Assembly (NCBI RefSeq): GCF_003334405.1
Contig: NZ_QOWM01000001.1
Direction: 5' to 3' (one strand)
DNA from: Escherichia coli
GTDB lineage: Bacteria > Pseudomonadota > Gammaproteobacteria > Enterobacterales > Enterobacteriaceae
DNA: 64,000 bases
Each line of letters begins with the position of its first letter. Position 1 is the stretch's first letter. Under the pieces are notes generated by a model, which saw only the letters and a program-made list of their open reading frames with translations, made no database searches and had not been told where the DNA came from. Of this stretch, positions 32,640-35,476 are shown in pieces. The position numbers were made by a program, and so were the translations under genes.

Positions 32640-33611
32640 TTATTTACTGTTGTATAACAAAGTTATAACACCATCCACTACCTGAGCCATTTTCTGATAA
32701 TTCAATCTGTCTGCGGTATCACCGGGCAAGTGGTATTGTTTATTACGATAAAAAGCGGTGTCAGTAATCATTATGGCGGGAATATCGTGTTGCCAATAAT
32801 TCAGGTGGTCAGAGAAATCAATACCGGGAATAAACCCTGGGGTATTCATAGAATAAACAGATAAATCCTGAGATGACAACAATGCCGCTTTTACCTGACG
32901 AACGGCGTTGATATCCTGTATTCTGCCGACCACGGCAATAAAGTCTCCCCGATCGGGATAAAGCCAGGACATTGCCGGGTAAGGGTAATTCTGGCTTCCA
33001 GGCGCAGAGTCGTAATAGCCAATCATCTCCAGTGCTATCATTAATTTCACTGGACGCTCAAGCGAAGCTGCATGCACCGCGCTCCCCATTTCATCGCTAC
33101 GAAAGAAGGGCGGTTCTTCCGACGCATAGGCGACCAGCTGCACGCCTGTTTTCGGTACTTGCTGATGTAACAAACGTGCCAGTTCGAGTAATCCTGCCAC
33201 ACCGCTGGCGTTATCATCCGCGCCCGGCGTATAGGTCAATTGATCGTTTTCATAACTGCTGGCAGAGTCATAATGCGCACCAATAATAATCAGCGGTCCA
33301 TCGGCAGGACCATAATCAGCAACAATGTTTTTGTAGGGGCCACCCGTAATGGGGACGTCCTGCGAGGTAACTCTGGCACCGCTACTGACAAAGACCTCTT
33401 TTATATATTCTGCGGACCTATTCAGATTATCAATATTGTCGGCACTACGTGGATGCACAGTTTGTGTAAGATAACGAACTGTTTTTTCTAATTGCTCAGG
33501 ACTTGCGTGTCGGGGCGTTGACGGTAATGCATTGACCCAGGGTTGGTAAAAAATAATCATAGGGAGTAAAAACACAAATAATATAATAAAAGCAAAGATT
33601 ATTTTTTTCAT
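32640..33611 (-). CDS. yfbL: Membrane-anchored or secreted M28-family zinc peptidase
   Basis: ORF 32640..33617; N-terminal hydrophobic signal/anchor (KKIIFAFIILFVFLLPMIIF) and M28-type metal-ligand-like motifs (HYDSA, DDNASG, YASEEPPF). Confidence 0.8.
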   Translation of the reverse strand: MKKIIFAFIILFVFLLPMIIFYQPWVNALPSTPRHASPEQLEKTVRYLTQTVHPRSADNIDNLNRSAEYIKEVFVSSGARVTSQDVPITGGPYKNIVADYGPADGPLIIIGAHYDSASSYENDQLTYTPGADDNASGVAGLLELARLLHQQVPKTGVQLVAYASEEPPFFRSDEMGSAVHAASLERPVKLMIALEMIGYYDSAPGSQNYPYPAMSWLYPDRGDFIAVVGRIQDINAVRQVKAALLSSQDLSVYSMNTPGFIPGIDFSDHLNYWQHDIPAIMITDTAFYRNKQYHLPGDTADRLNYQKMAQVVDGVITLLYNSK

Positions 33612-33748
33612 ATGCAAATTATTAATGGGTTGCGTTGTTGAATCATTATTTGCTATGGGTTTCGATATTGTATTTTATTAAGATTAGCAGGATTATACAA
33701 AGAGTATATTTTATGTCTGGTGCCTGAGTTTATTTAAAAGGATTTTAT

Positions 33749-35476
33749 ATGCGAAATAAAAATATAATCATGTTGCTTATGAGTAGTTTGATTTTGTCAG
33801 GATGTGGGCCGCAACCTGAGAATAAGGAAAGTCAGCAACAACAACCCAGTACTCCCACAGAGCAGCAAGTGCTTGCCGCGCAGCAAGCTGCAATAAAAGA
33901 GGCTGAGCAAAGCGCCGCCGCCGCGAAAGCCTTGGCCCAGCAAGAAGTGCAACAATATTCAGACAAACAGGCTTTACAGGGGCGATTGCAGGAAGCGCCA
34001 ACATTTGCAAGAGCGGCTAAAGCAAAAGCTACACATATCGCAAATCCAGGAACCGCTCGCTACCAGCAGTTCGATGATAATCCGGTTAAGCAGGTAGCGC
34101 AAAATCCGTTGGCGACGTTTAGTCTTGACGTTGACACTGGCAGTTATGCGAATGTAAGGCGTTTCCTCAATCAAGGGCTGTTACCTCCGCCAGACGCTGT
34201 GCGGGTGGAGGAGATAGTCAATTATTTCCCGTCTGATTGGGATATCAAAGACAAACAATCTATTCCGGCCTCTAAGCCAATACCTTTCGCTATGCGCTAC
34301 GAATTGGCACCTGCACCATGGAATGAACAGCGAACATTGCTGAAAGTTGATATCCTGGCGAAAGATCGCAAAAGTGAAGAGTTACCAGCTTCTAATCTGG
34401 TCTTTCTTATCGACACTTCTGGTTCAATGATTTCTGATGAACGTTTGCCACTTATCCAGTCTTCGTTGAAATTATTGGTCAAAGAACTTCGTGAGCAGGA
34501 TAACATTGCCATCGTGACCTACGCTGGCGACTCCCGTATTGCATTGCCTTCTATCTCCGGGAGTCATAAGGCGGAAATTAATGCCGCAATTGATTCGCTG
34601 GATGCCGAAGGCAGTACCAATGGCGGTGCCGGGCTGGAACTGGCTTATCAGCAGGCGACGAAGGGGTTTATTAAGGGCGGCATCAATCGCATTTTATTAG
34701 CCACTGACGGTGACTTTAACGTTGGCATTGACGATCCAAAATCGATTGAATCAATGGTCAAAAAACAGCGGGAGTCTGGTGTTACTCTGTCGACGTTTGG
34801 CGTGGGGAATAGCAATTACAACGAGGCAATGATGGTGCGAATTGCCGATGTTGGTAACGGCAACTACAGCTACATTGATACCCTCTCTGAAGCGCAGAAA
34901 GTATTGAATAGTGAAATGCGGCAGATGTTGATTACCGTAGCAAAAGATGTCAAAGCGCAAATTGAGTTTAACCCCGCGTGGGTAACGGAATACCGTCAGA
35001 TTGGTTATGAAAAGCGCCAACTTCGGGTGGAACATTTTAATAACGACAACGTTGATGCAGGGGATATAGGCGCAGGCAAACATATAACGTTGTTATTCGA
35101 ATTAACGCTGAACGGGCAAAAAGCATCAATTGATAAGTTACGCTATGCCCCGGATAACAAATTAGCGAAATCGGACAAAACGAAAGAACTGGCCTGGTTA
35201 AAAATTCGCTGGAAATACCCGCAGGGAAAAGAAAGTCAGTTAGTTGAATTCCCGCTGGGGCCAACAATAAACGCGCCCTCTGAAGATATGCGTTTTCGCG
35301 CAGCAGTAGCTGCATATGGGCAAAAGTTACGCGGTTCTGAATACCTGAACAATACCTCCTGGCAGCAGATCAAACAGTGGGCTCAGCAGGCAAAAGGGGA
35401 AGATCCACAGGGTTACAGGGCGGAATTTATTCGCCTGATTGAACTGGCGGATGGTGTGACTGACATCAGTCAGTGA
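33749..35476 (+). CDS. yfbK: Lipoprotein with von Willebrand factor A domain
   Basis: 575-aa ORF; lipobox LILSGC; Q/A-rich linker; MIDAS motif DTSGSM inside a vWA-like domain. Confidence 0.8.
   Translation: MRNKNIIMLLMSSLILSGCGPQPENKESQQQQPSTPTEQQVLAAQQAAIKEAEQSAAAAKALAQQEVQQYSDKQALQGRLQEAPTFARAAKAKATHIANPGTARYQQFDDNPVKQVAQNPLATFSLDVDTGSYANVRRFLNQGLLPPPDAVRVEEIVNYFPSDWDIKDKQSIPASKPIPFAMRYELAPAPWNEQRTLLKVDILAKDRKSEELPASNLVFLIDTSGSMISDERLPLIQSSLKLLVKELREQDNIAIVTYAGDSRIALPSISGSHKAEINAAIDSLDAEGSTNGGAGLELAYQQATKGFIKGGINRILLATDGDFNVGIDDPKSIESMVKKQRESGVTLSTFGVGNSNYNEAMMVRIADVGNGNYSYIDTLSEAQKVLNSEMRQMLITVAKDVKAQIEFNPAWVTEYRQIGYEKRQLRVEHFNNDNVDAGDIGAGKHITLLFELTLNGQKASIDKLRYAPDNKLAKSDKTKELAWLKIRWKYPQGKESQLVEFPLGPTINAPSEDMRFRAAVAAYGQKLRGSEYLNNTSWQQIKQWAQQAKGEDPQGYRAEFIRLIELADGVTDISQ

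What the first reader, a model, noticed from the sequence alone, without database searches (positions are those of the whole stretch)
32640..35476. Divergent pair yfbL (secreted M28 peptidase) and yfbK (vWA-domain lipoprotein) sharing a 131-bp AT-rich promoter region
Both products are envelope-targeted: YfbL has a signal/anchor plus M28 metallopeptidase motifs, and YfbK has a lipobox, a Q/A-rich linker and a vWA domain with an intact MIDAS (DTSGSM). A vWA adhesin-like lipoprotein paired with a peptidase under a shared divergent control region suggests a functional module.
Basis: inference. Interest (0 to 1): 0.4.

Follow-up and report, generated by a model that had tools for sequence, protein, structure and literature searches.

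The report
Known E. coli yfbL–yfbK gene pair
These are the already annotated E. coli genes yfbL (a membrane-anchored zinc peptidase) and yfbK (a lipoprotein with a metal-dependent binding domain); they are neighbours only in E. coli's close relatives, and each is lost without the other, so the idea that they work as a unit is not supported.

Summary
The window is an E. coli K-12-type chromosome. It carries yfbL (32640-33611, minus strand) and yfbK (33749-35476, plus strand), head to head across a 28% GC spacer. All the domain calls hold:
- YfbL has an N-terminal hydrophobic anchor and an M28 domain with every metal ligand present.
- YfbK has a lipobox, an Ala/Gln-rich linker, and a vWA domain with a complete MIDAS.

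Small corrections: the conserved yfbL start is the ATG at 33611, so the spacer is 137 bp rather than 131. YfbL also looks anchored rather than secreted.

The "functional module" inference is not supported:
- The pair occurs only at the nuoN–rbn locus of Escherichia, Salmonella, Superficieibacter and Pseudocitrobacter.
- None of 76 YfbL-family loci from other phyla has a YfbK-type neighbour, and the family has no conserved neighbour at all.
- Losses are reciprocal. About 54% of complete E. coli genomes lack yfbK, and about 780 of them still carry full-length yfbL. The main S. enterica lineage keeps yfbK without yfbL. The E. albertii type strain has a stop codon in yfbL beside an intact yfbK.
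- In the spacer, only the yfbK ribosome-binding site is conserved between genera.

In distant relatives the YfbK core is mostly the periplasmic part of ECF anti-sigma factors. This is ordinary, already annotated biology, and interest is low.

The parts
32640..33611 (-). yfbL (b2271), 323 aa: N-terminal signal anchor plus a periplasmic M28 zinc peptidase domain
   Evidence: ORF; RefSeq annotation; Pfam PF04389 E=6e-25; PDB aminopeptidase hits 2ek8/1amp/3b3t
33546..33602 (-). YfbL residues 4-22, the single hydrophobic segment (probable signal anchor). It is followed by Q23-P24, which are invariant across phyla
   Evidence: Kyte-Doolittle mean 3.0; alignment A1
32661..33329 (-). M28 catalytic domain (residues 95-317). 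Ligands are H113, D132, E166, E195 and H269, with catalytic E165
33612..33748 (.). 137-bp divergent spacer, 27.7% GC. Between genera only the yfbK-proximal end (Shine-Dalgarno AAAAGGA at 33736-33742) is conserved
33692..33719 (-). The only good sigma-70-like match in the spacer (CAGACA-16-TATAAT, 10/12), oriented toward yfbL. Consensus match only
33749..35476 (+). yfbK (b2270), 575 aa: predicted lipoprotein carrying the vWF_A-VWA-YfbK_C core
33794..33805 (+). Lipobox L16-S17-G18-C19 of YfbK. Gly at +2 predicts outer-membrane sorting by the Lol rule (inference)
33806..34048 (+). Ala/Gln-rich linker (residues 20-100). Predicted long helix at 38-79 flanked by low-confidence segments. Lineage-specific and variable in length
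34052..34345 (+). vWF_A N-terminal domain (PF12450), residues 102-199
34394..34897 (+). vWA domain, residues 216-383. The MIDAS motif DTSGSM is at 34412-34429, together with T290 and D320
34925..35452 (+). YfbK_C domain (PF12034/DUF3520), residues 393-568: a beta-sandwich followed by helices
33881..35436 (.). Segment missing in the yfbK-less E. coli strains examined (approximate breakpoints). It removes YfbK residues ~45-563 but leaves the spacer and the first ~130 bp of the gene
33025..33350 (.). Segment additionally missing in strains with a yfbL remnant (for example MDK6L1; O157:H7 shows the same two-piece match). It removes YfbL residues ~88-196, which include four of the five metal ligands

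Best explanation
yfbL and yfbK are two separately acting, dispensable envelope genes. They are neighbours because their common ancestor in the Escherichia-Salmonella lineage had them side by side in the variable low-GC island between nuoN and rbn, not because they form an obligate unit.

YfbL is most likely a type II (N-in) inner-membrane-anchored periplasmic exopeptidase. It has a two-zinc M28 centre and probably trims N-terminal residues of periplasmic peptides or proteins. It belongs to an ancient, widespread family of stand-alone genes.

YfbK is most likely an outer-membrane lipoprotein facing the periplasm. It is held on an ~80-residue flexible Ala/Gln-rich tether. Its vWA domain would bind a ligand through a metal ion at the MIDAS, probably an acidic side chain of a protein partner. 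The same three-domain core serves in many other bacteria as the periplasmic sensing part of ECF anti-sigma factors. E. coli has the core without the signalling part.

Shown here: domains, motifs, gene distribution and gene losses. Inferred: topology, enzymatic activity, lipidation, ligand and compartment.
For: Identity and domains.

Restricted pairing:
- The divergent pair sits at the same nuoN/rbn locus in contigs whose YfbL is 68% and 62% identical, in E. albertii, Pseudocitrobacter and Superficieibacter, and in S. enterica subsp. salamae. The other neighbours differ between these loci.
- Outside this clade, 0 of 76 YfbL-family loci (42-53% identity, many phyla, 1.05 Mb of flanks, 55 loci with at least 2 kb on both sides) hold a YfbK-core gene. 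There is one weak generic vWA hit.
- The largest cluster of shared neighbours covers 6 of 80 loci.
- Three further distant YfbL contexts and two distant YfbK contexts show no partner of the other kind.

Reciprocal loss:
- Of 5426 complete E. coli genomes, yfbK is covered at least 80% in 2514, yfbL in 3293, and both in ~2520.
- The yfbK deletion leaves yfbL annotated intact in strain MFDS1019527.
- The S. enterica cluster with 2821 member sequences has yfbK but no trace of yfbL.
- The E. albertii type strain has a stop at yfbL codon 216 beside an intact yfbK.
- yfbL remains under purifying selection between K-12 and a yfbK-less strain (dN/dS 0.28).

Spacer: only the yfbK ribosome-binding site is conserved, and spacer length ranges from 137 to ~330 bp.

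YfbK core as a sensor module:
- 64 of 150 representatives start with an anti-sigma-like motif followed by a TM segment.
- A profile of these N-termini hits RslA (3hug_B, E=1e-7) and RskA (4nqw_B, E=1e-3).
- NCBIfam 'anti-sigma factor' matches 7 of 7 tested.
- The published ECF289 anti-sigma factor is described as DUF3520 fused to vWA.
Against: - Within E. coli the losses are nested. Essentially no genome has yfbK without yfbL, and yfbL decay is seen only where yfbK is already gone. That pattern would also fit yfbL losing part of its purpose once yfbK is lost.
- The pair has been kept head to head across genera whose proteins are only ~62-70% identical, while the surrounding genes turned over.
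- Both proteins are predicted to face the periplasm, so contact between them is possible.
- No expression, localisation or interaction data were available.
- The YfbK-side context sample outside the enterics is only two loci.
- Coverage of at least 80% does not prove an intact reading frame.
Confidence: 0.7

Rival explanations
1. Lineage-specific functional module. In the Escherichia-Salmonella clade the anchored peptidase and the tethered vWA lipoprotein would act together in the periplasm. For example, YfbL could trim a protein that YfbK captures through its MIDAS, or process YfbK itself. Both would be expressed from one divergent control region.
For: - The divergent arrangement is retained in at least five genera or subspecies while the flanking genes change.
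- The loss order in E. coli is nested.
- Both products are predicted to be periplasm-facing.
Against: - 0 of 76 co-occurrences outside the clade, and no conserved neighbour for the YfbL family.
- yfbK is kept without yfbL in the major S. enterica cluster and beside a nonsense-mutated yfbL in E. albertii.
- Full-length yfbL is kept without yfbK in ~780 E. coli genomes.
- There is no conserved shared operator in the spacer.
- The phage N4 screen lists yfbL and yfbO but not yfbK.
- M28 enzymes are exopeptidases, which are poorly suited to specific processing (established knowledge of the family).
Confidence: 0.12
2. Co-silenced neighbours. The two genes are biochemically unrelated but share regulation, because the whole low-GC island, including the AT-rich spacer, is bound by nucleoid proteins such as H-NS. 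They would therefore be switched on and off together. This reading is compatible with the best explanation: it concerns regulation rather than function, and its confidence is not exclusive of it.
For: - The island at 29.5-36.9 kb is 41.6% GC against 51.2% for the whole window, and its spacers are 25-41% GC.
- Island content varies between strains and genera, as is typical of horizontally acquired DNA.
Against: - No binding or transcript data were examined here.
- A literature search for yfbK/yfbL together with H-NS found nothing specific.
- The only reported regulator site nearby is an LldR SELEX peak inside yfbK, not in the spacer.
Confidence: 0.3
3. Decaying remnants. Both genes are relics without current function in E. 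coli K-12, on their way to being lost.
For: - yfbK is absent from ~54% of complete E. coli genomes, and yfbL is reduced to a remnant in ~38%.
- IS903B and IS1B insertions occur in yfbK in some strains.
- Both genes lie in a region that could be removed in the genome-reduced strain DGF-298. That paper mentions both genes, but the passage was not read.
Against: - dN/dS is 0.12-0.28 for yfbL and 0.12 for yfbK between Escherichia lineages.
- All catalytic and MIDAS residues are intact in K-12.
- The yfbL deletion gives a complementable phage N4 resistance phenotype.
Confidence: 0.1

Closest known systems
E. coli K-12 yfbL (b2271) and yfbK (b2270) as annotated in RefSeq/EcoCyc-type resources
   Same: Identical sequence, coordinates and product names: 'M28 family metallopeptidase' and 'vWA domain-containing protein'. 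One paper lists them as 'putative membrane-associated peptidase' and 'putative lipoprotein'.
   Different: Nothing differs. This is the same locus.
Aeromonas/Vibrio proteolytica leucyl aminopeptidase (PDB 1amp, 3b3t) and other M28 aminopeptidases (2ek8)
   Same: M28 fold signature with the ligand series His-Asp-Glu-Asp-His and the catalytic Glu, all aligned with YfbL residues.
   Different: - Only partial, low-scoring sequence matches (E=1e-9 to 1e-11).
- The fourth ligand is Glu195 instead of Asp.
- YfbL has an N-terminal membrane anchor rather than a secreted pro-enzyme.
- It has no PA or pro-domain.
- Its activity is untested.
ECF289-type anti-sigma factors with a periplasmic vWA + DUF3520 domain (Casas-Pastor et al. 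2021, PMC7826278)
   Same: The same vWF_A-VWA-YfbK_C core at 41-53% identity, with an identical MIDAS.
   Different: E. coli YfbK has a lipoprotein signal and an Ala/Gln linker in place of the cytoplasmic anti-sigma domain and the TM helix. No ECF sigma gene lies next to it.
ArnB (Sulfolobus) / Catenulispora vWA 4fx5 / Sec23-Sec24 core architecture
   Same: These are the best structural matches of the YfbK model, sharing the order vWA, beta-sandwich, helical domain. The resemblance is already noted in PMC12852372.
   Different: - 14-16% sequence identity and TM-scores of 0.32-0.47.
- ArnB is cytoplasmic and controlled by phosphorylation.
- YfbK is exported.
BatA/BatB aerotolerance vWA proteins of Bacteroides (PDB 4jdu, 3ibs)
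   Same: Best sequence-level PDB hits for the vWA domain (E=1e-7 and 2e-6; 22-25% identity in the fold alignment).
   Different: - Bat proteins are TM-anchored.
- They lack the vWF_A N-domain and YfbK_C.
- By general knowledge of that system, they sit in an operon with MoxR-type ATPase and DUF58 genes. None of these is present here.

Membership tests
Peptidase family M28 (Pfam PF04389 / MEROPS M28) | Significant match to the family profile | tested here: met
   PF04389 E=6.3e-25, residues 95-317, model positions 1-191 of 193
Peptidase family M28 (Pfam PF04389 / MEROPS M28) | Co-catalytic zinc ligands His, Asp (bridging), Glu, Asp, His, plus the catalytic Glu | tested here: met
   H113, D132, E166, E195 and H269, with E165, align with His97, Asp117, Glu152, Asp179, His256 and Glu151 of 3b3t/1amp. 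The fourth ligand is Glu rather than Asp. All are invariant in 16 homologues
Peptidase family M28 (Pfam PF04389 / MEROPS M28) | Metal-dependent exopeptidase activity | not testable with these tools
   Needs an enzyme assay
Bacterial lipoproteins (Lgt/LspA/Lnt substrates) | Basic n-region, hydrophobic h-region and lipobox [LVI][ASTVI][GAS]C within the first ~40 residues | tested here: met
   MRNKN-IIMLLMSSLI-LSGC19. L(S/T)GC is conserved in E. albertii, Superficieibacter, Salmonella and two other enterobacterial orthologues
Bacterial lipoproteins (Lgt/LspA/Lnt substrates) | Actual lipidation and membrane sorting | not testable with these tools
   Gly at +2 predicts outer-membrane sorting only by rule. 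One paper calls YfbK 'free periplasmic'
vWA domain with functional MIDAS | DxSxS ... T ... D metal-coordinating residues | tested here: met
   D222, S224, S226, T290 and D320 are invariant in 60 sequences. VWA PF00092 E=4e-22
YfbK family (PF12450 + VWA + PF12034) | All three domains in this order | tested here: met
   The same three domains occur in 60 of 60 relatives. The model has mean pLDDT 86.6
ECF anti-sigma factors with vWA-DUF3520 ectodomain (ECF289 partners) | N-terminal cytoplasmic anti-sigma domain followed by a TM helix | tested here: not met
   E. coli YfbK begins with a lipoprotein signal. There is no anti-sigma motif and no second hydrophobic segment
ECF anti-sigma factors with vWA-DUF3520 ectodomain (ECF289 partners) | Adjacent ECF sigma factor gene | tested here: not met
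   The neighbours are yfbL, yfbM and elaD. No sigma-70 family gene is annotated within 6 kb
Conserved two-gene functional module (peptidase + vWA protein) | Adjacency conserved across distantly related genomes | tested here: not met
   0 of 76 non-enterobacterial YfbL-family loci, and no conserved neighbour cluster. Two distant YfbK loci have no M28 gene
Conserved two-gene functional module (peptidase + vWA protein) | Co-inheritance: the two genes are gained and lost together | tested here: not met
   yfbL without yfbK in ~780 E. coli genomes. yfbK without yfbL in the main S. enterica cluster. A nonsense yfbL beside an intact yfbK in E. albertii
Conserved two-gene functional module (peptidase + vWA protein) | Shared, conserved regulatory element in the spacer | tested here: inconclusive
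   Only the yfbK ribosome-binding site is conserved across five genera. Promoter-like matches are near chance level. No transcript data were available
Conserved two-gene functional module (peptidase + vWA protein) | Physical interaction or shared phenotype | not testable with these tools
   The only indirect evidence is that the phage N4 screen lists yfbL and yfbO, not yfbK

The most novel reading that the evidence does not exclude
In the Escherichia-Salmonella lineage, a sensor ectodomain that elsewhere belongs to ECF anti-sigma factors was re-tethered as a lipoprotein (YfbK). It would have acquired the anchored aminopeptidase YfbL as a lineage-specific partner. Together they would remodel or monitor an envelope protein, for example one needed for phage N4 adsorption. 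The nested decay seen in E. coli (yfbK lost first, then yfbL) would reflect loss of that joint function.
Probability: 0.08. Interest if true: 0.4.

Novelty: already known. Interest (0 to 1): 0.12.

Why it matters
It matters little beyond tidying the annotation. Both genes are uncharacterised y-genes of E. coli K-12, so any real function would be of modest interest to envelope biologists.

Three useful points come out of this check:
- The gene pair should not be treated as an operon-like unit when inferring function.
- YfbL belongs to a very widespread stand-alone family of anchored M28 peptidases with an invariant Gln-Pro after the anchor. Its function should be sought without reference to YfbK.
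- The YfbK core is the sensing domain of a large class of ECF anti-sigma factors. E. coli YfbK could therefore serve as a simple, soluble model for finding the ligand of that sensor class.

Tried and rejected
- Literature search by b-numbers returned only reference-list noise.
- A yfbK/yfbL + H-NS search gave nothing specific.
- The first homologue search with YfbK returned only near-identical E. coli variants. The 50%-representative search was needed to reach distant relatives.
- Context look-ups for P0022 (not on record) and for P0241 and P0242 (contigs of 2-3 kb) were uninformative.
- A viral-contig scan with the YfbK alignment gave only nine distant vWA-only matches, so it was not used.
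- Supplementary files of the ECF classification paper are not held.
- No tandem DNA repeat underlies the Ala/Gln linker.
- Considered and rejected: YfbL as a glutaminyl cyclase. PDB hits 4fuu and 6qro are M28-fold cyclases, but YfbL keeps all five ligands of the two-zinc site.
- Considered and rejected: YfbK as a Bat-type aerotolerance protein or a CLCA-type 'chloride channel homologue' (the KEGG name; NCBIfam hCaCC E=1e-5, far below its cut-off). Only the generic vWA domain is shared.
- Considered and rejected: the TTG start of yfbL, which is not conserved.
- The metagenome-wide scan from the YfbK side was not run. The YfbL-side result and the reciprocal losses already answer the question, and the scan is costly.
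Full report
**What is there**

The window is an E. coli K-12-type chromosome. A 3.3-kb query around the finding is 100% identical to complete E. coli genomes, and the gene order there is nuoN, yfbP, yfbO, yfbN, yfbM, yfbL, yfbK, elaD, rbn, elaA, elaB, menF.

- yfbL is annotated at 32640-33611 on the minus strand (323 aa, 'M28 family metallopeptidase').
- yfbK is annotated at 33749-35476 on the plus strand (575 aa, 'vWA domain-containing protein').
- They are transcribed divergently across a 137-bp spacer.
That TTG is not conserved (TTA in E. albertii), so the ATG at 33611 is the better start.
- The spacer is 27.7% GC. The whole stretch from 29.5 to 36.9 kb is a low-GC island (41.6% against 51.2% for the window), and its other spacers are 25-41% GC. 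The AT-richness is therefore real but not distinctive.

**The two proteins**

YfbL matches Peptidase_M28 (E=6e-25).

- Its residues H113, D132, E165-E166, E195 and H269 align with the two-zinc ligands and the catalytic glutamate of the Aeromonas aminopeptidase structures. The only change is Glu for Asp at the fourth ligand. All of these residues are invariant in 16 homologues down to 50% identity.
- Its only strongly hydrophobic stretch is residues 4-22, preceded by Lys-Lys.
- Across the family this segment is conserved in position but not in sequence. It is followed by an invariant Gln-Pro rather than a signal-peptidase site.
- I therefore read it as a signal anchor that leaves the catalytic domain in the periplasm. 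This is an inference; no predictor or experiment was available.

YfbK has the Pfam domains vWF_A (102-199), VWA (216-383) and YfbK_C (393-568).

- It starts with MRNKN, a hydrophobic run and the lipobox LSGC. That lipobox is kept in every enterobacterial orthologue examined.
- The MIDAS residues D222, S224, S226, T290 and D320 are invariant in 60 relatives of 41-53% identity.
- Residues 20-100 are 44% Ala+Gln. They are modelled as one long helix between low-confidence segments.
- This linker is absent from or different in other genera, so it is a variable tether.
- An AlphaFold2 model built with the 60-sequence alignment has mean pLDDT 86.6.
- Its best solved matches are ArnB, the Catenulispora vWA protein 4fx5 and inter-alpha-inhibitor heavy chain 1. 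The ArnB resemblance is already in print.

**Is the pair a module? Test 1: conservation of adjacency**

Contigs encoding YfbL homologues of 68% and 62% identity keep the divergent yfbK-yfbL pair at the same nuoN/rbn site, although the other island genes differ.

A scan of one genome per species with a YfbL alignment returned 80 loci.

- The pair is present in E. albertii, Pseudocitrobacter and Superficieibacter. One divergent E. coli locus holds only a yfbK remnant.
- None of the 76 loci from other groups has a YfbK-type gene in 1.05 Mb of flanking sequence. Those groups include Proteobacteria, Verrucomicrobia, Acidobacteria, Nitrospirae, Aquificota and Planctomycetes, at 42-53% identity.
- The single hit is a weak generic vWA match.
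- Clustering of all flanking ORFs shows that the YfbL family has no conserved neighbour at all. The largest cluster covers 6 of 80 loci.
- Three further distant YfbL contexts and two distant YfbK contexts agree.

**Test 2: co-inheritance**

Among 5426 complete E. coli genomes, yfbK is covered at least 80% in 2514, yfbL in 3293, and the joint region in about 2520. That gives three states:

- both genes present (~46%);
- yfbL alone (~14%, about 780 genomes);
- a yfbL remnant with no yfbK (~38%).

In the two yfbK-less strains examined, window positions ~33881-35436 are missing. The second event removes ~33025-33350, which is the part of yfbL that encodes four of the five metal ligands. Strain MFDS1019527 lacks yfbK, yet its yfbL is annotated as intact.

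In Salmonella the opposite happened. Subspecies salamae has both genes. The S. enterica cluster with 2821 member sequences has yfbK but no detectable yfbL, and unrelated DNA fills the space up to ~170 bp upstream of yfbK. The E. albertii type strain has a stop at yfbL codon 216 next to an intact yfbK.

Each gene therefore persists without the other. Both show purifying selection: dN/dS is 0.12-0.28 for yfbL, including a comparison with a yfbK-less strain, and 0.12 for yfbK.

**Test 3: the spacer**

Aligned across five genera, the spacer varies from 137 to about 330 bp. Only the yfbK Shine-Dalgarno region (TTTAAAAGGA-TT-ATG) is conserved.

The consensus scan finds one 10/12 promoter-like site pointing toward yfbL and none in the spacer for yfbK. 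Overall there are 12 sites against 7.0±2.1 in shuffles. Nothing supports a shared operator, though no transcript data were available.

**Test 4: phenotypes in the literature**

- A 2025 preprint reports complementable phage N4 resistance for yfbL and yfbO deletions. yfbK does not appear in its hit tables.
- yfbK turned up in a rifampin-persister screen and as a poor conjugation recipient, and yfbL did not.
- An LldR SELEX peak lies inside yfbK rather than in the spacer.

These are thin data, but they show no shared phenotype.

**What YfbK works like**

The core (residues ~97-571) is a very large family, with 7150 clusters at 50% identity and E≤1e-30. The N-termini are highly variable.

- Of the 150 best representatives, 64 begin with an L-T-x-Y-x-L-G-E-L type motif. 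In most of those examined it is followed by a hydrophobic segment about 75-120 residues from the N-terminus.
- 19 of the 150 have a lipobox like E. coli.
- A profile of those N-termini hits the anti-sigma factors RslA (3hug_B, E=1e-7) and RskA (4nqw_B, E=1e-3).
- NCBIfam's 'anti-sigma factor' model matches 7 of 7 tested.
- The ECF classification paper already describes the ECF289 anti-sigma factor as DUF3520 fused to a vWA domain.

E. coli YfbK is therefore the lipoprotein-tethered form of a periplasmic sensing domain, without the signalling half and without an ECF sigma gene nearby. No peptidase domain is fused to the core in any of 60 relatives.

**Verdict**

The genes, their domains and the YfbK fold are already known and annotated.

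The proposed functional module is not supported. Adjacency is a lineage-specific inheritance at one variable locus, the two genes are lost independently and in both directions, and no shared control element is conserved.

What remains in favour of a link is the nested loss order in E. coli and the persistence of the head-to-head arrangement across several genera. I give a lineage-specific partnership about 10%.

Noticed in passing
window 29507-36945: There is a low-GC island (41.6% GC) between nuoN and rbn carrying yfbP, yfbO, yfbN, yfbM, yfbL, yfbK and elaD (an ElaD/SseL-type deubiquitinase, NCBIfam E=1e-136). Its content varies. In strains MDK6L1 and MFDS1019527, nuoN is followed directly by yfbM, so yfbP, yfbO and yfbN are absent. 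In Salmonella and Superficieibacter a CheW-response-regulator gene replaces elaD.
   Followed up: partly
window 32640-33611 compared with L003 4238-5212: yfbL alleles within E. coli are unusually divergent. K-12 against strain MFDS1019527 gives dS≈0.19 and dN/dS 0.28, and most complete genomes are only 90-99% identical to K-12 here. This suggests old allelic lineages or recombination from other Escherichia.
   Followed up: partly
L010 10001-10972 (E. albertii NBRC 107761): yfbL has an in-frame stop at codon 216 (Trp in K-12), while the adjacent yfbK is full length.
   Followed up: yes
window 33546-33602 (YfbL residues 4-24) and alignment A1: Gln23-Pro24, directly after the membrane segment, are invariant in YfbL homologues from many phyla, as is His294 outside the canonical ligand set. 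Neither has an obvious role in the M28 mechanism.
   Followed up: no
L004 6978-8900: In a contig whose YfbL is 68% identical, a 440-aa AAA_21/AAA_15-type ATPase and a 199-aa protein of unknown family sit between yfbL and nuoN. This may be an anti-phage defence pair inserted in the same variable spot.
   Followed up: no
P0124 (E. coli YfbK variant, 615 aa), corresponding to window ~34870-34975: This is a YfbK allele with a 34-residue internal direct duplication (IDTLSEAQKVLNSEMRQTLITVAKDVKAQIEFNP) at the vWA/YfbK_C junction. Other alleles differ in linker length (575-591 aa). Some genomes carry IS903B or IS1B insertions in yfbK.
   Followed up: no
window 30414-30890 (yfbO) and 32640-33611 (yfbL): A 2025 preprint reports that deleting either yfbO or yfbL makes K-12 specifically resistant to phage N4, with complementation. 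The two genes are 2 kb apart in the same island and have no known function.
   Followed up: partly
L093 6113-6827 (S. enterica): About 715 bp of sequence unrelated to yfbL (42% GC) lies between nuoN and the yfbK upstream region in the main S. enterica lineage. No gene is called there.
   Followed up: no
window 30414-30890: The longest yfbO ORF is 158 aa, but RefSeq annotates 140 aa (423 nt). The start codon is uncertain.
   Followed up: no
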